From a virus, in IMG/VR virus record IMGVR_UViG_3300046330_000229, positions 18,266 through 82,265 of that record: 64,000 bases of DNA, one strand, 5' to 3'. Position 1 is the stretch's first letter. Each line of letters opens with the position of its first letter. Made by a program: the position numbers and the translations under genes. Positions 28,448 to 36,236 of this stretch are shown here, piece by piece. Below the pieces are notes generated by a model. That model did no database searches. It was not told the origin of the DNA and saw only the letters and a list, made by a program, of their open reading frames with translations.

Positions 28448-30327
28448 ATGAAAATTTCAAAAGAATTACAAACTGAATATAAAAGACTAACAAGACTCAA
28501 TAAAGCTATGATTAAAGCCGTTTTAAATTTTAATGATTTTGATTCTTATGTTTTAAGTATCAAGGATAGTCTAGAGCGTATTGAACAGATTAAAAAAGGA
28601 GTAAAATAATATGTATAAAATTGAGACAAACTTAACTGAAACACCTTACGTCAATCAAATATGTGTAAGACTTAACGCTTTAAAAGGCATATACGGATTA
28701 TGTCAACTAGAATCTTGTCTTGCTGTAATCCTAGCCGGTCAATCGTCTAAACAAGTAATTTTAGCAAGACATATACATAACCTTGTGTTAAGCTATGACA
28801 AGACAGATATAAACGACGCACTATATATCATGTGCTTATTACAAAATACACAAGAGGTTGCATAGTTATGTACAAAAGAAAAACACAAGACGAATATATT
28901 TTATTAGGTAACTACGGCTACGGTCATGGTTATGAGGAGTTAACTGCGGAAAGTAGTCGCATTGAAATTAGACAGCGCCTAAAAGAATATAAAGAAAACG
29001 ACTCTTATGCTTTAGACTTTAAAATAATTAAAAAACGCGTGAAAATTGAAACTAATGAGGTAACTTAACATGAAAACAGCATATGATTTTTTAATGAAAC
29101 TGTACGATGATATGACTAATGACGAAAATAGAGACGAGCAGCTTTATTCAGAATTAGAATCAACACTAGTCACACTTAAAAATGAAATGGACGGACTTTA
29201 ATATGGAAAAACAATTTTATACAAAAACCGGTCAACTAACAGACTACGCACTAGCGTGCGGATATATGCAGACCTTTGAAGCATTAGACGAGCGCCTTTG
29301 TTTATATAAAGAACACAATGCGTATCATGTAAAAATGACAAGCAATGTATCAAGAGTCTGGGAGGTGTTCGACACGTTAACAGAGGCTAGACAGTTTTAT
29401 AAAAAAGAATATCTAAAGCTTGAACTAGCAAGATTAAATTCAAGACTAGGCTTTACAGCAAATTGTGACTTGTTATATAAAAAGATTGATAAAATAGAAA
29501 AAACTTTAAAAGGAATGAACTAGTATGATGAAATATCAAGTAGATATTGAATTTAGGTATACGACAAAAAATGATGACGACGAAACTGATTATCATTTTA
29601 AAACTTGTGTTATAGGCATATACAACACACTAGACGATGCTGTACAAGCTGGAAACATTATGCTTGAGTCACAACTAGAGACTAGGTTTAAATTAAATGA
29701 ACATTGGAACGTAAAGGAACGGTTTTCTAAAAATAATGTCTTAATAAGTGAACTAGCATATTTAAGGACACCATTTCAATTTTTTGCTAGAATTAAGCCG
29801 TTACACTTTACAGATGTTGGTGAAGCTGTTGAAAATATACTAGGACTTAAATAGTATGATGAAATATGCAATATACTTCTATGACAAAAAAGGTAACAAT
29901 ATAAAAATCATATCGAGACATAAAACTATTTCAAGCGCAATGAAAAAACGAGCAAAAGGCGGCTCTAGACTTGAGGATATTGCAGCATCTATGGTAGGTC
30001 TTGAATATGTATTTTTTAAAATAGACACAATGCAAGATTTATTAGAAAAACCTTATAACATAACTTATTTTAGAGGAGTGAAGTAATATGTCAAAATTGC
30101 AATGGAATATGCGGACTTCTGTCAGCGATCAGATTCCTTTTTTTGTTAACAACGACTATCTAGTGCCCTATATTATTCGTCTTAACTCAAACAATACATA
30201 TACAGTATACGACACGCGTCGCTATGGCTCGCGTCAAGACTTTAATTTTTTTGGATACAGCGTTGTGTCTGTACATAAAAGTCTAGTTCAAGCTAAACGT
30301 AAGGTTAGCATTTTAAATAAAGGCTAG
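28448..30327 (+). other. run of small early hypothetical genes
   Basis: Closely packed 50-110 aa ORFs, most with SD sequences. Confidence 0.6.
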
Positions 30328-30776: not shown

Positions 30777-31374
30777 ATAAGATGAAATTTAAAAATATAA
30801 ATGAACTATATGACAGATACGAATATTTAAAAGTTATGGCAGACAGAAAATCAGCGTGGAATAAGGAATCAATATCTTATGATCTTAATATTCAAAAACT
30901 AAGACAGTACGCTTTTGAGTTACGCTGTACACTTAAAGACTTAACACCTAGCGAGCAAGTTTTATTGGTCAACATAACAGAAAGTAATAGGTAGTATAAT
31001 GAATCATATACAGTGGCTTTATTCGCAATTAAAAGATCATGGTCAAGCGACGCAACGTGACTATCTGAATCATGTACCCGAGTCAATATCACGCAACGAC
31101 GCTCTGCTATGGTTGTATAAACTAGAAAAGAAAAGACTAGTTATGATTGACTATACTAAGAAAAATCCAGTGTTCTATCTACGCGAATACACTGGGGAAT
31201 ATTCAAATTAACGCGTAAAGGGGTCTTGCGGAATTTTAAATTTTGGGGTATACTTAACCATACCCTCGAAATAAAAAACTTTTTACCTCTAAGAGACTTT
31301 TATATTTTGAAAGTGAAAATCAAAGCCAGAAATTACGAATTGACCCTAAGTCCCCCATATACAAAGGATGCAGC

Positions 31375-32397
31375 ATGAAAATAGTTAAGTGTAAAGAATC
31401 AGCGAAAAGCCACTACGGAAGATCGGTTTTGTTTTACAATCCAACAAAAGGTTTGTATAGTTTTAATTCTGGTATAAAATTGGCCGTCTTGCAAGTAAAC
31501 ACAACCCAATTGATCAGTTTACGATCTGGAGAAGATCAATACTTAGACCAAATAAGTAAAGAGTTAGGGGTAGACAGAAGCAATTTTATTATTGAAGAAC
31601 AATTTGTTGAAGACGTGTCAGTTAATCACGCAGGTGAACACACTCATTTAGTTAGTGTAATTAAAACGGAGAACACTTCACTACCTTTTGGTACATATAA
31701 GCTTGTAACTATTAATCATACCGATTATTTGAAGCCTATTAAAATGGATAGTACTATTATTAAAGTTGGTGACAATCGTATTCACAACGAGGTGGCGGGA
31801 TTCTTTAAAGATGCGCCAGTAGGACGCAGAAACAAAAAGGGTATCCTTGCTTATGGTAGGCCAGGCAACGGTAAGACCAGCGACATCATGCAGTTAGACG
31901 CATTAGCTAAGACTGAAGGGTTCTACGTTCTTATTCCACAAGATATGATTATTTTACAAGACTTTGCTGAAGTGTTTAAGAATAAAAATACTGTAGTCAT
32001 TTTAGAAGAGACTACACAAATGCTGGAACGCGGGGCTTTAGAGAGCATTCTTAGCTTCCTTGACGGTGAGTATTCATGGGACAACTGTGTTACAGTGTGT
32101 ACAACCAACTATCCTGATGACTTCCCTTCTAATATTATCGATAGACCTGGACGCATTGATACGTTTATTGAGTATAAGAATCCAAGCAGCGAGGAAATTA
32201 CAGCATTGGTACTGAAGTTCGGATTACCTGCTGACGACGCATTACCGCTTCAAGGTAAAGACTTGTCCTTTGATTACGTGTCACATGTGTGTAGTATAGC
32301 TAAACAAACTGGTGAGCCTGTCAGCAAGGTTTACAATGATATGAAAGATCGTCGTAAGTTCTTATCTGAAACATTCAAAGGGAAGATGGGTTTATAA
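31375..32397 (+). CDS. AAA+ ATPase, similar to 16357-17319
   Basis: GRPGNGKT, VILEE, LSFLDG, CTTNYP, RPGRID. Confidence 0.85.
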   Translation: MKIVKCKESAKSHYGRSVLFYNPTKGLYSFNSGIKLAVLQVNTTQLISLRSGEDQYLDQISKELGVDRSNFIIEEQFVEDVSVNHAGEHTHLVSVIKTENTSLPFGTYKLVTINHTDYLKPIKMDSTIIKVGDNRIHNEVAGFFKDAPVGRRNKKGILAYGRPGNGKTSDIMQLDALAKTEGFYVLIPQDMIILQDFAEVFKNKNTVVILEETTQMLERGALESILSFLDGEYSWDNCVTVCTTNYPDDFPSNIIDRPGRIDTFIEYKNPSSEEITALVLKFGLPADDALPLQGKDLSFDYVSHVCSIAKQTGEPVSKVYNDMKDRRKFLSETFKGKMGL

Positions 32398-32398
32398 T

Positions 32399-32740
32399 AT
32401 GAAGCTAACTGAAAAAGAACAACAAGAAGTGTCGGCTATTCTACGCAACACACAATCGGTATCACCTATCGTAACAAGTATGTACGACGAAACAATTGAA
32501 TGCAATCCCGAGCTTAGACTATTACGTAAGAAGTTGTACAAGGCTATTGCGTTTAGTAAGCCAACGTATGGGAGACATACCAACCATTTCCGTAACGTTG
32601 ACATGACCCTGGACTACATCTTTAACGATATGAAATATTATGAACTGAGTAAGAAGTACAAAGTATGCCGGACTTTAGTTAGCGTTACAATAGCTAGAAC
32701 TGTATCTGACTTAAAGAAAGAAATACTTGAGCACATTTAA
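32399..32740 (+). CDS. HTH DNA-binding protein (sigma region 4-like C-terminus)
   Basis: MKYYELSKKYKVCRTLVSVTI HTH pattern. Confidence 0.5.
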   Translation: MKLTEKEQQEVSAILRNTQSVSPIVTSMYDETIECNPELRLLRKKLYKAIAFSKPTYGRHTNHFRNVDMTLDYIFNDMKYYELSKKYKVCRTLVSVTIARTVSDLKKEILEHI

Positions 32741-33287
32741 TCTATACAAAATTATAGCTAGAACAAGTGCTAATCATCCTCTGATTAAAAAATTCATCAG
32801 CAAACATCACTATATCGGTACTCTTAGTCGCGGTAATCAGTATGTGTATTGTTTGGGTATAGGTAACAAATTAGTAGGGGTGGCTATCTACGGTACTCCG
32901 GTTGGAACATATTGTAGTCAAAAATACGGAAACGTAATAGAACTTAAACGCTTCGCATTGTCTCCGGAATGTCCTAAGAACACAGGCTCGTGGTTTCTAG
33001 CTAAATGTCATAAGCTATTACCCAAAGGTCTGTCAGTTCTATCGTACTGTGATCCTAGCGCCGGACACGAAGGCACCCTATATCGTGCGGCTAACTTTAT
33101 GTATCTAGGTAAACAAAAACACCCATCTTTTATGATTAAAGTAAAAGGAGAGAAAAAACTATACCCAGCTAGTGTTATGTACAGATCAAAGAAAACAGGA
33201 GCTAGACTTAAACTATTGAAACAGCAAGGATTAGCCAAACAAGTTACAGCACCCTCTAAACACATATTCATATACAAAAGAACTTAG
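32727..33287 (+). CDS. mom: Mom-family (GNAT-fold) DNA adenine modification enzyme
   Basis: FISKHHY, LVGVAIYG, ELKRF, PKNTGSWFL, LSYCDP..GHEGTLYRAANF, as in Mu Mom homologs. Confidence 0.8.
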   Translation: MSTFNLYKIIARTSANHPLIKKFISKHHYIGTLSRGNQYVYCLGIGNKLVGVAIYGTPVGTYCSQKYGNVIELKRFALSPECPKNTGSWFLAKCHKLLPKGLSVLSYCDPSAGHEGTLYRAANFMYLGKQKHPSFMIKVKGEKKLYPASVMYRSKKTGARLKLLKQQGLAKQVTAPSKHIFIYKRT

Positions 33288-33289
33288 AC

Positions 33290-33654
33290 GATACACCGAG
33301 CAATCCATAACATAACACTGGTTACATTAGGAGTCTTCTTGTGTAGCTATTCTTTCCCAGTGTTTACTTCAGCTAGCCATAAGTCTTTGTGCATTACAGC
33401 ACCATAGATTAATGTCTTCTCGTCTTTGCTATCTCGTTACGTTACCCTATTTAAGTTCGGGCACTTCTCTTGACCTAGCAAGCTCACACTCGTATATCGT
33501 CTGAACGTTGTCTCTTGATTTGTTCTCGGTATTATCGATAGCACAAACCCAGGTTTTCATTTCCTGCCATATACTGAAACAACTTCCATGCGCTTATCGT
33601 TACATAAGCCGTGCCTTGTTTAAAGAGCGGTAGGCGTTGCATGCTCTGTGTATC
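33290..33654 (-). ncRNA. candidate ~365 nt structured ncRNA
   Basis: No ORF; 13 bp terminal inverted repeat (12/13); internal hairpins; dedicated minus-strand promoter at 33655-33683. Confidence 0.55.
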
Positions 33655-33720
33655 AATATAACACAAAATGTAGCAATTGTCAAATAAAATCTTGACATTA
33701 CGTTAAATCTATGTTAAAAT
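33655..33720. promoter_or_regulatory. back-to-back divergent sigma70 promoters
   Basis: Minus: TTGACA(33683-78)-17-TATATT(33660-55). Plus: TTGACA(33692-97)-17-TAAAAT(33715-20). Confidence 0.8.
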
Positions 33721-33729
33721 GGATAAATT

Positions 33730-34326
33730 ATGGAGTTAAACCAAATGACAATACAATTACCAAGTCCGTATATATGGGTTACAGAGTTTAACGATCAAGC
33801 TGTTCAAAAGTTCTTTGACCAGTTTACACAAATGGAATCAGATCCTACCATTGAGGTCATCACCGTTGTGATAGATAGTTTTGGCGGACAAGCTTACTCT
33901 ATGTTTGCTATGCGCGATTTAATCAAAACTAGTAAGAAGCCGGTTTCAACTGTAGCTCTAGGTAAGGCCATGAGCTGCGGGGCGTGGTTGTTAGCTGCCG
34001 GTACAAAAGGACTACGTTACATTTCACCTAGTACTCATGTCATGATTCACCAGATCTCTTCAGGTGCGGCTGGTAAACTAGAGGACATGAAAGTGGATTT
34101 AAATCACAGCACAGATTTGAGTGTGCAAGCTTTTAATTTGTTAGCCAGTGATATTGGTATGCCGGTCAATAAACTTAAAGCTTTAGTTAAGGGTGAAACT
34201 AATTCCGATCTTTACTTAACACCTAAAGAGTGCTTGAAGATGAAGATTGTTGATTTTATAGATATACCTCGTATGGCATTTATTCCACCTATGCAAACAT
34301 TAACCACTAATGTTAAGAGACGATAA
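33730..34326 (+). CDS. clpP: ClpP-like protease
   Basis: IDSFGG, GKAMSCG (Ser), MIHQIS (His), DLYLTPKEC...IVD. Confidence 0.85.
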   Translation: MELNQMTIQLPSPYIWVTEFNDQAVQKFFDQFTQMESDPTIEVITVVIDSFGGQAYSMFAMRDLIKTSKKPVSTVALGKAMSCGAWLLAAGTKGLRYISPSTHVMIHQISSGAAGKLEDMKVDLNHSTDLSVQAFNLLASDIGMPVNKLKALVKGETNSDLYLTPKECLKMKIVDFIDIPRMAFIPPMQTLTTNVKRR

Positions 34327-35189
34327 TGGATAGACCTTGGGTACATATTAAAAATACCCAAGATACATACCGAACTTTATACAGGCTTTTGTACTTGGGG
34401 TTTGATGTTGTTGTTGAGTATACGATGAAACATAATAGCAAAGGACACCTTTTTAATTTTTATTGTAACTACCATTGTATTTCCGGCCGAGTTAGAATGG
34501 TTGCTAATGTTAAAGTTTACTCTGAGGATTTTGATAGTTTTAATGAAGATGTATATAGTAGTTTTATAAGAAAAGAATCAGATAGACTCCATCCAGAAGG
34601 TGCGATAGTTTGTTAAATTTAAGGTACACCAGAACTAATGAAAAACTCATACCTTGGTTGTTTAAACTAGGGTGCGATGATATACATTTACATTTTACTA
34701 CACATACTATAAATTTTACTGTATGTTTACACATACACGACACCGATTCTAGTATGATGTTTAAAGATACTTTTAGAGTAAAAAATCCGGATACGGCAGT
34801 TAGCGATGCTTTAAAGCACATGACAAGGATTTATATATTTTTATCAATTGATGACATAAAATATTGCGATGAATAAATATATATCAATTACTTATCAAAA
34901 CGAACATACAATTAACACAATCAGGCTGTTACATTATGTAGGTATTGATAAAATTGAGCTATGCTTTTATATAAAAAATAGCAACACAAGAGTTTATATA
35001 GAAACTAGACGACTAACCTCGGAAATATATCCGTTTGGCTTTGAAGCTCACGGCGGCGAGCTTATTGGATGTCGGGGCACAGAAGTCGATTTTAAGAATT
35101 GTGCGTATGACACTATAACTAAAACTACCCGCATGTCTCCATCAAACTTCGACGAACTGGTTCAAACTGATCCGATTTTTCTTTTATAA
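34326..35189 (+). repeat. three tandem diverged paralogs coupled to the ClpP gene
   Basis: RLLYLGFD / WLFKLGCD / LLHYVGID motif at a similar position in ORFs 34326, 34610 and 34869. Confidence 0.55.
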
Positions 35190-35249
35190 TAAAATAAGTA
35201 TTGACATATTAATTCTTTTATGTTAAACTGTATACAACAAGGAGACAAT

Positions 35250-36236
35250 ATGAAATATATGTATATGATTCTAACTTTAGCTATTGCGGGATGTTCTGTG
35301 GAGCGTTCATTAGAGGCTACGGTAACAGCAGTTAACGGTACGTCTTGTTCTGTGGCACCAGAATACGCCGTAGATGAAAGCGAAGAAGTTACTTCAACTT
35401 CATTAAAACAAATCGGAGCCAGAATTTCCTGTACAGACGGAAGTTACTCCATCGTTTTAAACGGAGAAAAGGGTGTTGACGGTATTCAAGGTGAAGCCGG
35501 ACAAAGCTGTCAAGCTTCACGTAGCAGAGGATCTAATCACGTAACCCTTCAATGTCCCAATCAGCGCCCATTACACATTTCTGATGGAGAAGATGGTACT
35601 AGTTGTTCTTCTGTAAGATTACGTAATTCGGTACAGATTAAATGCGGTAATCGTATTACTTATGTATACGATGGTGACGACGGGCACTCTGTTGTGACAC
35701 AAACTCAACCAGCATCTACTAGAGAATGTCTAACAAGCGGTACGAGATTAGATTTATACATGGATCGAGACGACAGTTTATCAGTTACACGCTCGGATTC
35801 TTATTTAAGTTCTGTAATTACTTGTAACGGACTAAACGGCCTTCAAGGTGTAGCTGGTCCCATTGGGCCGCAAGGATTGACTGGTTCTGTCGGCGCTACA
35901 GGGACAACTGGTGCTGTTGGACCTCAAGGTTTGACTGGAACCGCTGGACCGGTTGGCCCTCAAGGTCCCATTGGACCACAGGGCATTCAAGGTCCTTCTG
36001 GTACAAACTCAGGAGCCACCATAACAAATTACGGATCAAATTCGTGTACTAGGATTACTGGAACAAACAGTTATGTAAAACCGACTGGATCTAATAATAT
36101 AGGATTATACACAACTTCTAATTGTGCGTCAAATTCTAAATTTGCTGAAGTATCTCAAGGTGAAGCGTATTGGGTGTCGTCTACGTCTTTAGGTACTTGG
36201 GTTGACGGTTGTTTACGAGTAATCACTTTTAACTAA
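35250..36236 (+). CDS. collagen-repeat, Cys-rich lipoprotein
   Basis: Lipobox IAGC, repeated Cys-paired G-x-D-G-x-S-C modules, ~20 Gly-X-Y triplets; own promoter TTGACA(35201)-17-TAAACT. Confidence 0.8.
   Translation: MKYMYMILTLAIAGCSVERSLEATVTAVNGTSCSVAPEYAVDESEEVTSTSLKQIGARISCTDGSYSIVLNGEKGVDGIQGEAGQSCQASRSRGSNHVTLQCPNQRPLHISDGEDGTSCSSVRLRNSVQIKCGNRITYVYDGDDGHSVVTQTQPASTRECLTSGTRLDLYMDRDDSLSVTRSDSYLSSVITCNGLNGLQGVAGPIGPQGLTGSVGATGTTGAVGPQGLTGTAGPVGPQGPIGPQGIQGPSGTNSGATITNYGSNSCTRITGTNSYVKPTGSNNIGLYTTSNCASNSKFAEVSQGEAYWVSSTSLGTWVDGCLRVITFN

What the first reader, a model, noticed from the sequence alone, without database searches (positions are those of the whole stretch)
33290..33683. ORF-free ~365 nt structured element with its own promoter, converging on the mom-like gene
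Seen: GATACACCGAGCA (33290-33302) and TGCTCTGTGTATC (33642-33654) form a 12/13 inverted repeat bracketing the whole interval. Internal stems include AACACTGG/CCAGTGTT (33314-21/33357-64), GTGC/GCAC (33389-402), CAGG/CCTG (33550-66) and GCTTAT/ATAAGC (33592-609), and several loops contain GTAA/GAAA on the minus strand. A TTGACA-17-TATATT promoter fires into it against the otherwise all-plus block, and its far end lies 2 nt from the mom stop codon. It lacks the hallmarks of tmRNA and RNase P. Inference: an undescribed large phage ncRNA (ribozyme, scaffold, guide or antisense regulator of the DNA modification gene). Caveat: the expected TSS falls inside the 5' repeat arm, so only part of the closing stem would be transcribed.
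Basis: partly seen in the sequence, partly recalled or inferred. Interest (0 to 1): 0.75.

Follow-up and report, generated by a model that had tools for sequence, protein, structure and literature searches.

The report
Conserved ORF-free spacer after phage mom
A 365-base stretch without genes, between a DNA-modification gene (mom) and a protease gene of an uncultured freshwater phage, has a strong backward-pointing promoter and barely varies between strains, so it is probably a non-coding regulatory transcript unit; nothing shows that it is a large folded RNA.

Summary
The sequence features are real. There is a 442-bp gap (33288-33729) between a Pfam-confirmed Mom gene and a ClpP-like gene. 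All six frames carry stops. A 12/13 inverted repeat brackets 33290-33654. A near-consensus sigma70 promoter (33683->33655) points against the gene flow, back-to-back with the clpP promoter.

"Structured" is not supported. The predicted transcript folds no better than shuffles (z about -1.1). Rfam, tRNA and tmRNA searches are empty, and the listed stems are short. There is no terminator, so a discrete 365-nt RNA is not defined.

No homologue exists at DNA or protein level in any collection reached, so covariation cannot be tested. No RNA data were available.

Three new observations:
- The minus strand is purine-rich, like a sense strand.
- The plus strand is C-rich and G-poor after the mom stop, like a Rho loading site.
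- In one variant strain the stretch 33291-33668 shows 1-2 differences, while flanking genes differ by about 3% (about 7% at third codon positions) and promoter spacers by about 10%. This means either strong constraint or a recombination block.

Best reading (about 0.37): a convergent non-coding transcript unit that damps or insulates mom. A new structured RNA class remains possible (about 0.15). The scan noted this same stretch once more in the same genome, not on other DNA.

The parts
32727..33287 (+). Mom-family DNA modification gene (186 aa); stop codon TAG at 33285-33287
   Evidence: Pfam PF25680 Mom, E 2e-24. Homologues of 63-67% identity exist.
33290..33302 (.). Left arm of the bracketing inverted repeat (GATACACCGAGCA)
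   Evidence: 12/13 complementary to the right arm. An inverted repeat this good arises in 7/300 shuffles. The motif occurs nowhere else in the window beyond chance.
33642..33654 (.). Right arm of the inverted repeat (TGCTCTGTGTATC). It lies at about -6 to +7 of the minus-strand promoter, so only 6-8 nt of it would be transcribed.
33288..33648 (-). Predicted untranslated, purine-rich transcript body. The transcription start (TSS) is inferred at about 33647-33649. No terminator follows, so the transcript would run on antisense into mom.
   Evidence: No ORF over 44 aa. Minus-strand composition over 33288-33654: A127 G90 T85 C65. Skew. Fold z -1.06. No terminator.
33655..33683 (-). P-minus: -35 TTGACA (33683-33678), 17-nt spacer ending TGT, -10 TATATT (33660-33655)
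   Evidence: 11 of 12 matches, TG present. Both hexamers are unchanged in variant strain X17, while the spacer has 3 changes.
33692..33720 (+). P-plus: TTGACA-17-TAAAAT, promoter of the clpP operon, back-to-back with P-minus. The two -35 hexamers form TGTCAA-N8-TTGACA at 33678-33697.
   Evidence: It is one of 14 exact TTGACA-N16-18-TAnnnT matches on the + strand.
33250..33627 (+). C-rich, G-poor untranslated tail after the mom stop codon (candidate Rho loading region for + strand read-through)
   Evidence: C/G ratio in 78-nt windows is 1.3-2.75, which is the 88th to 99.9th percentile of the + block. No intrinsic terminator lies between mom and clpP.
33492..33502 (.). Alternative partner (GTATATCGTCT) of the left end 33286-33296, 10/11 complementary
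   Evidence: pair I3.
33500..33505 (.). Probable polymorphic spot. Contigs of three independent runs break here (ends at 33499/33510, starts at 33505/33506).
   Evidence: table 8.
33730..34326 (+). ClpP-like protease gene. The real start is perhaps ATG 33745, which follows GGAG.
   Evidence: Pfam CLP_protease 2.2e-28; sequence.

Best explanation
The gap is a non-coding, minus-strand transcription unit inside the early, plus-strand gene block of a virulent 82-kb freshwater phage.

Host sigma70 RNA polymerase would start at P-minus (33683->33655) at about 33648. It would make a purine-rich, untranslated RNA that runs 360 nt to the mom stop codon. With no terminator, it would continue antisense into mom.

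Read on the plus strand, the same DNA is a C-rich, G-poor untranslated tail behind mom. That is the composition Rho needs to load.

The most likely function acts in cis. Convergent transcription and antisense RNA would damp or time the potentially toxic mom gene. They would also separate the mom operon from the clpP operon, which has its own promoter 9 bp away, back-to-back.

Shown: the anatomy, composition, absence of coding, and low variation between strains. Inferred: promoter activity, extent of the transcript, the effect on mom, and Rho termination.
For: - The gap is ORF-free with stops in all frames.
- There is no coding signal beyond composition.
- No protein family or homologue was found.
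- P-minus matches 11 of 12 consensus positions with an extended -10. Its architecture (TTGACA-N14-TGT-TAnnnT) is the same as four plus-strand promoters of the phage.
- Its hexamers are intact in strain X17 despite 3 spacer changes.
- The minus strand is purine-rich, as are the sense strands of this genome's genes. It is one of only three such places in the 47-kb plus block.
- Another of those places (24797->24550) is a minus-strand promoter driving a real 75-aa ORF, so embedded leftward units exist in this phage.
- No terminator is found on either strand.
- The plus-strand C/G ratio reaches the 99.9th percentile at the mom stop.
- The stretch 33291-33668 has 1-2 differences in 378 nt in X17. 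Flanking genes have 22/788, ClpP third positions 11/153 and the promoter zone 6/61 (Fisher p = 0.006, 4e-5 and 1e-4).
- Precedent: convergent promoters and antisense RNAs regulate phage switches and a toxic DNA-modification system (PMC5001618, PMC3141266).
Against: - There is no transcript evidence of any kind.
- About two TTGACA-17-TAnnnT matches per strand are expected by chance in 64 kb (my own estimate from base composition). Other minus-strand matches lie inside genes. P-minus could therefore be a by-product of a palindromic operator at the clpP promoter.
- A simple antisense or terminator spacer should tolerate substitutions. The near-invariance of all 378 nt is more than this model needs. 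It points either to denser constraint or to a recombination block.
- Only one variant haplotype was available.
- Sixty-three Mom loci of other phages had enough downstream DNA to judge. None shows a comparable convergent unit as a rule: 51 of 63 are followed by a co-directional gene.
Confidence: 0.37

Rival explanations
1. Stand-alone functional RNA gene of a new class (structured RNA, ribonucleoprotein scaffold, decoy or ribozyme) that acts through its own fold or sequence rather than by antisense.
For: - Near-complete conservation of exactly the ORF-free block in strain X17. Variation resumes at the mom stop and 14 nt beyond the right arm.
- GC of 0.39-0.45 is above the genome mean of 0.36, unlike the AT-rich promoter spacer at 0.25.
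- The bracketing repeat could join the 5' and 3' ends.
- It has its own promoter.
Against: - Folding of the predicted transcript is like shuffles, z -1.06. Local 120-nt windows range from -2.7 to +1.4.
- Only 6-8 nt of the 5' arm would be transcribed.
- There are no true tetraloops.
- No Rfam match even at E <= 10.
- No terminator or other 3'-end signal.
- No homologue anywhere, so there is no covariation.
- No partner enzyme: reverse transcriptase, TnpB and recombinases are absent.
Confidence: 0.18
2. Non-functional remnant: a decayed or replaced minus-strand gene (a small accessory gene slot) that keeps its old promoter and composition. Its identity between strains would be a recombination (mosaic) block.
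For: - Skew and GC resemble a minus-strand gene.
- Successive open pieces lie in three minus frames.
- The region is an orphan with no conserved synteny in ClpP or Mom relatives.
- Strain X17 is visibly mosaic elsewhere: unlike sequence begins at 31399 (table 7).
Against: - The dicodon signal is not above shuffles.
- No protein homologue was found for any piece or for the read-through frame.
- The identity block coincides with the edges of the ORF-free stretch on both sides, within a few to about 14 nt. That is unlikely for a random recombination tract.
- The same frame interruptions, with no indels, appear in contigs of four independent runs.
Confidence: 0.2
3. Tiny proteins. The transcript would encode a 36-aa peptide (ATG 33642, 5-7 nt from the predicted start) and an overlapping 37-aa peptide (ATG 33560).
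For: - Both ORFs start with ATG just downstream of the promoter.
- The purine-rich sense strand is coding-like.
Against: - Neither has a Shine-Dalgarno sequence, although this phage's genes usually carry AGGAG.
- The coding score is not above shuffles.
- Neither ORF is in a collection of 15 billion predicted proteins.
- No family hit.
- They cover only 193 of the 378 conserved nt.
- No synonymous variation is seen, where about 5 changes would be expected.
Confidence: 0.08
4. DNA-level element defined by the inverted repeat. Options are a miniature mobile element, an invertible switch, two operator half-sites that loop DNA over P-minus, or a transcription-primed replication origin.
For: - 13-bp terminal inverted repeat (p about 0.02).
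- The identity block between strains is roughly bounded by the arms.
- The right arm sits on the start site of P-minus, which is an operator position.
Against: - No target-site duplication.
- Single copy in the genome.
- No other repeat-bounded copy in 185,579 species genomes or in IMG/VR.
- No serine or tyrosine recombinase in the phage.
- Only one orientation is seen in contigs of four runs.
- The arm motif occurs nowhere else in the window.
- No iterons.
- The stretch is not AT-rich, and GC skew follows transcription with no inflection here.
Confidence: 0.08

Closest known systems
Phage cis-antisense and convergent transcripts (lambda oop and paQ RNAs, P22 sar RNA, coliphage 186 pR/pL interference)
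   Same: A host-polymerase promoter on the opposite strand, downstream of or facing a regulated gene. The transcript is untranslated. Regulation acts by antisense pairing or polymerase collision. (Established knowledge; phage 186 system in PMC5001618.)
   Different: Those RNAs are short (about 70-200 nt), have terminators and overlap their target directly. Here 360 nt of conserved spacer precede the target, no terminator is seen, and there is no sequence relation. Expression is untested.
Antisense promoters in the EcoRI restriction-modification operon (PMC3141266)
   Same: Reverse-oriented promoters tune the expression of a potentially self-toxic DNA modification or restriction system.
   Different: The EcoRI promoters lie inside the coding region. 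This system is plasmid or chromosomal, not phage Mom. There is no homology.
Mu mom regulation (Dam/OxyR, C protein, Com)
   Same: The same enzyme family is under presumed tight control. An upstream overlapping small ORF (32399-32740) is positioned like com.
   Different: Mu uses transcriptional activation and a translational activator. To my knowledge no convergent RNA is known for Mu mom. Com-like function of the 113-aa ORF is untested (no Pfam hit).
Large phage-associated ncRNAs (GOLLD, ROOL) and retron msr-msd RNA
   Same: ORF-free, hundreds of nucleotides long, found in phage genomes. In retrons, inverted repeats bracket the element.
   Different: No Rfam match. No reverse transcriptase. 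No folding signal.
Rho-dependent terminators (rut sites)
   Same: An untranslated, C-rich and G-poor stretch directly after a stop codon.
   Different: This is a compositional resemblance only. rut sites are usually about 80 nt long and poorly conserved. Function was not tested.

Membership tests
Any Rfam family (tmRNA, RNase P, 6S, group I/II introns, GOLLD, ROOL, HEARO, known phage sRNAs) | Covariance-model score at or above the family's gathering threshold | tested here: not met
   The best hit is MCS4 at 19-21.5 bits against a threshold of 56, E 2.6-5.8, and it lies over the promoter zone. ARAGORN finds no tRNA or tmRNA in the window or genome.
Structured ncRNA (generic) | Folding energy significantly below dinucleotide shuffles, and/or covarying base pairs | tested here: not met
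   z is -1.06 for the predicted transcript and -1.36 for 33288-33700 minus. Covariation is not testable because no homologues were found.
Cis-antisense / convergent regulatory transcript | Promoter on the opposite strand directed at the target gene | tested here: met
   TTGACA-17-TATATT with TG, 11 of 12 matches, 360 nt downstream of the mom stop. This is in silico evidence only.
Cis-antisense / convergent regulatory transcript | Transcript exists and overlaps the target gene | not testable with these tools
   No RNA run was listed. The absence of any terminator before mom makes overlap likely, but this is inference.
Protein-coding gene or pseudogene | Open frame, codon-level signal, or homology of a translated frame | tested here: not met
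Miniature inverted-repeat transposable element | Terminal inverted repeats, target-site duplication and multiple copies | tested here: not met
   The terminal repeat is present. There is no duplication of flanking bases. The genome holds a single copy, and no other copy was found in GTDB species genomes or IMG/VR.
Invertible DNA switch (inverton) | Flanking inverted repeats, a site-specific recombinase, and both orientations in a population | tested here: not met
   No resolvase or tyrosine recombinase in the phage. Contigs of four runs show only the reference orientation. Contigs can miss rare forms.
Retron msr-msd | Bracketing inverted repeats with an adjacent reverse transcriptase | tested here: not met
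   No RVT_1 match in the genome.
TnpB/IscB guide (omega) RNA | An adjacent RNA-guided nuclease gene | tested here: not met
   No TnpB/Cas12f-like domain in the genome.
Rho-dependent terminator | Untranslated region with C greater than G, and Rho-dependent 3' ends | tested here: inconclusive
   The compositional criterion is met: C/G 1.3-2.75, up to the 99.9th percentile. Termination itself is not testable here.

The most novel reading that the evidence does not exclude
The block 33291-33668 is an RNA gene of an undescribed class. It would be made from its own sigma70 promoter, with nearly every position under selection. It might be a ribonucleoprotein scaffold, an anti-defence decoy or a catalytic RNA, specific to an orphan lineage of freshwater phages.
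Probability: 0.15. Interest if true: 0.7.

Novelty: new member of a known kind. Interest (0 to 1): 0.35.

Why it matters
Mom-type DNA hypermodification is harmful to the host cell. Outside Mu, nothing is known about how it is controlled. A convergent non-coding unit behind mom would be a second, different solution to that problem.

If the strain-level invariance reflects selection, this would be a densely constrained non-coding element in a phage lineage with no cultured relatives.

As it stands, the finding is an orphan. It has no transcript data and no relatives for covariation, so its value is as a well-defined target for RNA-seq of freshwater samples.

Tried and rejected
The contigs of the nearest ClpP relatives and of the 63-67% Mom relatives (P0121-P0123) could therefore not be fetched.
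- No RNA holder was listed among public runs.
- The DNA search of GenBank phages found no match.
- A 21-mer of the region is absent from IMG/VR and the JGI metagenomes. Records of this genome or of very near ones may be masked there.
- The repeat-bounded pattern is absent from GTDB genomes and IMG/VR.
- 160 loci around ClpP or Mom relatives show no blastn or tblastx similarity to the region and no synteny. The nearest cultured relatives by DNA polymerase are Flavobacterium phages at 43%. Mom relatives in GenBank phages are at most 35% identical.
- Relatives cannot be drawn for a virus record.
- Stop-codon reassignment is rejected, because stops of all three kinds occur in every frame.
- The frameshifted-gene idea: the successive open pieces score no better than shuffles. 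The read-through frame hit only a repeat protein, and BLASTP does not align the two.
- A trans-target search found no complementarity longer than 14 nt elsewhere in the genome.
- An operator family was sought but the arm motif is not repeated.
- An R-loop origin is unlikely: there is no G-richness, no AT-rich unwinding element and no skew inflection.
- Genome terminus at 33499/33506: contig ends coincide in three runs. However, similar coincidences occur inside clpP (33943, 33981/2). A shared strain polymorphism is therefore the simpler reading.
- The minus-strand promoter-like site at 30094 lies over the start of a coding ORF and is probably a chance match.

Full report
**Context**

The window is bases 18266-82265 of an 82,265-bp viral record that assembles as a circle with a 24-bp end overlap. 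The phage occurs in many freshwater metagenomes. It has no tRNA genes, no integrase, no resolvase, no reverse transcriptase and no TnpB.

Terminase and portal genes lie in a minus-strand block. The plus-strand block from about 12.9 to 60.2 kb carries replication and nucleotide-metabolism genes: primase-helicase, family A DNA polymerase and others.

The finding lies inside this plus block. On its left are an AAA ATPase gene, a 113-aa ORF and a Mom-family gene (32727-33287; Pfam Mom 2e-24). On its right is a ClpP-like gene (33730-34326).

**The observation**

All stated sequence features are present:
- the 12/13 inverted repeat 33290-33302 / 33642-33654;
- the four short stems;
- the 2-nt distance to the mom stop codon.

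The 442-bp gap has no ORF longer than 44 aa. TAA, TAG and TGA occur in all six frames, so no single codon reassignment opens it.

The consensus scan finds two 11-of-12 promoters back-to-back. The minus-strand one is TTGACA-17-TATATT (33683->33655). The plus-strand one is TTGACA-17-TAAAAT (33692->33720). Both carry TG before the -10.

An inverted repeat this good arises in 7 of 300 dinucleotide shuffles of the gap.

The claim of structure fails its test:
- The transcript predicted from the promoter (33648->33288) has z = -1.06.
- The wider stretch 33288-33700 gives -1.36 (minus) and -2.38 (plus).
- Only with both complete arms does z reach -2.6, equally on either strand.
- 120-nt windows range from +1.4 to -2.7.
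- The loops quoted as GTAA/GAAA are 6-9 nt loops on a purine-rich strand, not tetraloops.

Rfam gives nothing even at E <= 10.

**Is it coding or a dead gene?**

On the minus strand, three successive open pieces lie in three different frames, which looks like a frameshifted gene. But a dicodon score trained on this phage's long ORFs is no higher than in dinucleotide shuffles of the same strand (p = 0.14 and 0.31).

No piece hits Pfam or PHROGs.

The frame with the fewest stops was read through (P0131, 110 residues). Among 1.84 billion representatives it found only a five-fold repeat protein, and BLASTP does not align the two.

The ATG-started small ORFs have never been called as genes in a 15-billion-protein collection. 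The ClpP of this phage is on record from 8 contigs there.

Contigs from four independent runs show the same sequence without indels, so the frame breaks are not assembly errors.

**Relatives**

None could be reached.
- ClpP relatives are at most 52% identical.
- The 80 IMG/VR loci around them have tightly packed co-directional genes upstream of clpP. They share no other gene with the window and have no similarity to the gap.
- Mom has relatives of 63-67% (P0121-P0123).
- IMG/VR Mom loci are at most 45% identical, not syntenic and not similar in the downstream DNA.
- GenBank phages give no DNA match.

Covariation therefore cannot be tested.

**New evidence 1: composition**

In this genome the sense strand of genes is purine-rich. 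GC and AT skew are about +0.1 in the plus block and negative in the minus blocks.

Between 33250 and 33650 both skews fall to between -0.13 and -0.33. The minus strand of 33288-33654 is A127 G90 T85 C65.

Only three places in the 47-kb plus block look like this:
- One is a hydrophobic plus-strand ORF.
- One is 23700-24800. There a consensus minus-strand promoter (24797) drives a 75-aa minus-strand ORF, followed by about 850 nt of ORF-poor DNA.
- The third is the finding.

Embedded leftward units therefore exist in this phage, and the finding has the composition of one.

Seen from the plus strand, the same skew is a C-rich, G-poor untranslated tail that starts at the mom stop. The C/G ratio is 2.75 in 33250-33327, the 99.9th percentile of the block, and 1.3-1.8 up to 33627. 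This is the composition of a Rho loading site. No intrinsic terminator separates mom from clpP.

**New evidence 2: variation between strains**

Contigs of four runs were laid on 31300-35300. Three runs carry the reference strain. Run X17 carries a variant haplotype and no reference-type contigs at the variant sites.

| Stretch | Differences in X17 |
|---|---|
| AAA gene | 10 in 330 nt |
| clpP | 12-13 in 458 nt; 11 of the 12 listed are at third codon positions |
| Promoter zone 33669-33718 | 6 in 50 nt |
| 33291-33668 | 1-2 in 378 nt |

In the promoter zone, five changes fall in the spacers and one in the plus -10. The differences in 33291-33668 are unlisted because they lie near contig ends around 33500-33510.

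One contig (33505-33914) carries both the invariant part and the variant flank. The left contig starts with four unaligned bases at the mom stop.

Fisher tests give p = 0.006 against the coding flanks, 4e-5 against clpP third positions and 1e-4 against the promoter zone.

At the neutral rate seen next door, about 30 differences would be expected. There are two ways to explain the shortfall. Nearly all positions could be under selection. Alternatively, this block was recently exchanged between strains. X17 is mosaic elsewhere (unlike sequence from 31399).

The edges of the identity block coincide with the edges of the ORF-free stretch, which favours a unit, either functional or mobile, over a random tract. 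But this is one haplotype only.

**Other models tested**

- Mobile miniature element: there is no target duplication. The genome holds a single copy. No other repeat-bounded copy exists in 185,579 species genomes or IMG/VR.
- Invertible switch: no recombinase is present, and only one orientation is seen.
- Retron or guide RNA: no reverse transcriptase and no TnpB.
- Operator family: the arm motif is not repeated.
- Trans-acting sRNA: no complementarity over 14 nt in the genome.
- Origin: not AT-rich, no iterons, no skew inflection.

**Reading**

The most economical model that uses all parts is a convergent non-coding transcription unit.

P-minus would fire an untranslated purine-rich RNA toward mom. 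That RNA is a poor Rho substrate and has no terminator. The plus-strand read-through from mom would meet this traffic and a Rho-type tail. The clpP operon would restart from its own promoter 9 bp from the P-minus -35.

This resembles known phage and restriction-modification antisense controls (PMC5001618, PMC3141266), but without any homology to them.

The model does not explain why all 378 nt should be invariant. For that reason a stand-alone functional RNA (0.18) and a mosaic remnant (0.20) remain serious rivals.

Promoter activity, the extent of the transcript and any effect on mom are inferences.

**Verdict**

The features are real. 'Structured ribozyme-like RNA' is not supported. A non-coding regulatory unit is plausible. 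The strain-level conservation is the one result that keeps a more novel reading alive.

The scan noted the same stretch once more in the same genome (e1-6073837), and not on other DNA.

Noticed in passing
window 23700-24800: A second leftward island in the plus block. The consensus minus-strand promoter TTGACA-17-TATAGT (24797->24769) drives a 75-aa minus-strand ORF (24550-24777; no family). About 850 nt of ORF-poor, minus-strand purine-rich DNA follow. It is paired with a plus-strand promoter at 24924.
   Followed up: partly
window 33675-33704: The two -35 hexamers of P-minus and P-plus form a palindrome, TGTCAA-N8-TTGACA. In strain X17 this 30-bp core is unchanged, while three changes lie on each side of it. 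It could be a shared operator.
   Followed up: partly
window 12889-53700, + strand: Fourteen exact TTGACA-N16-18-TAnnnT matches lie on the plus strand, 13 of them in the 12.9-53.7 kb block. My own estimate from base composition is about 2 per strand by chance. Of the 15 plus-strand sites printed (the 14 plus one TTGACT site), 12 have a C just before the -35, and most of those I read are followed by an AGGAG-type ribosome site. The host therefore uses canonical sigma70 and Shine-Dalgarno signals, although the nearest cultured DNA polymerase relatives are Flavobacterium phages (43%).
   Followed up: partly
window 33499-33510: Contigs of three independent runs end or start here (33499, 33505, 33506, 33506, 33510). 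This is probably a shared polymorphic hexamer (33500-33505) inside the otherwise invariant block. A fixed DNA end or nick cannot be excluded with contigs.
   Followed up: no
window 33730-33747: The ClpP start may be ATG 33745, preceded by GGAG at 33733-33736, rather than ATG 33730. ATG 33730 would be almost leaderless from P-plus, whose start is predicted near 33727.
   Followed up: no
window 31399 onward (AAA ATPase gene, N-terminal part): The contig of strain X17 matches up to 31398, then continues for 109 nt with unlike sequence. This is a strongly divergent or replaced segment within the AAA gene of the variant strain.
   Followed up: no
window 33285-33404: The mom stop codon is TAG. The same frame stays open for 39 more codons, which encode a hydrophobic stretch (ITLVTLGVFLCSYSFPVF). 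The genome has no suppressor tRNA, so this is probably meaningless.
   Followed up: no
proteins P0121-P0123: Mom proteins of 63-67% identity exist on Logan/ENA/NCBI contigs of up to 8 kb. They are the only sign of genus-level relatives of this phage and the best route to a comparative test.
   Followed up: no
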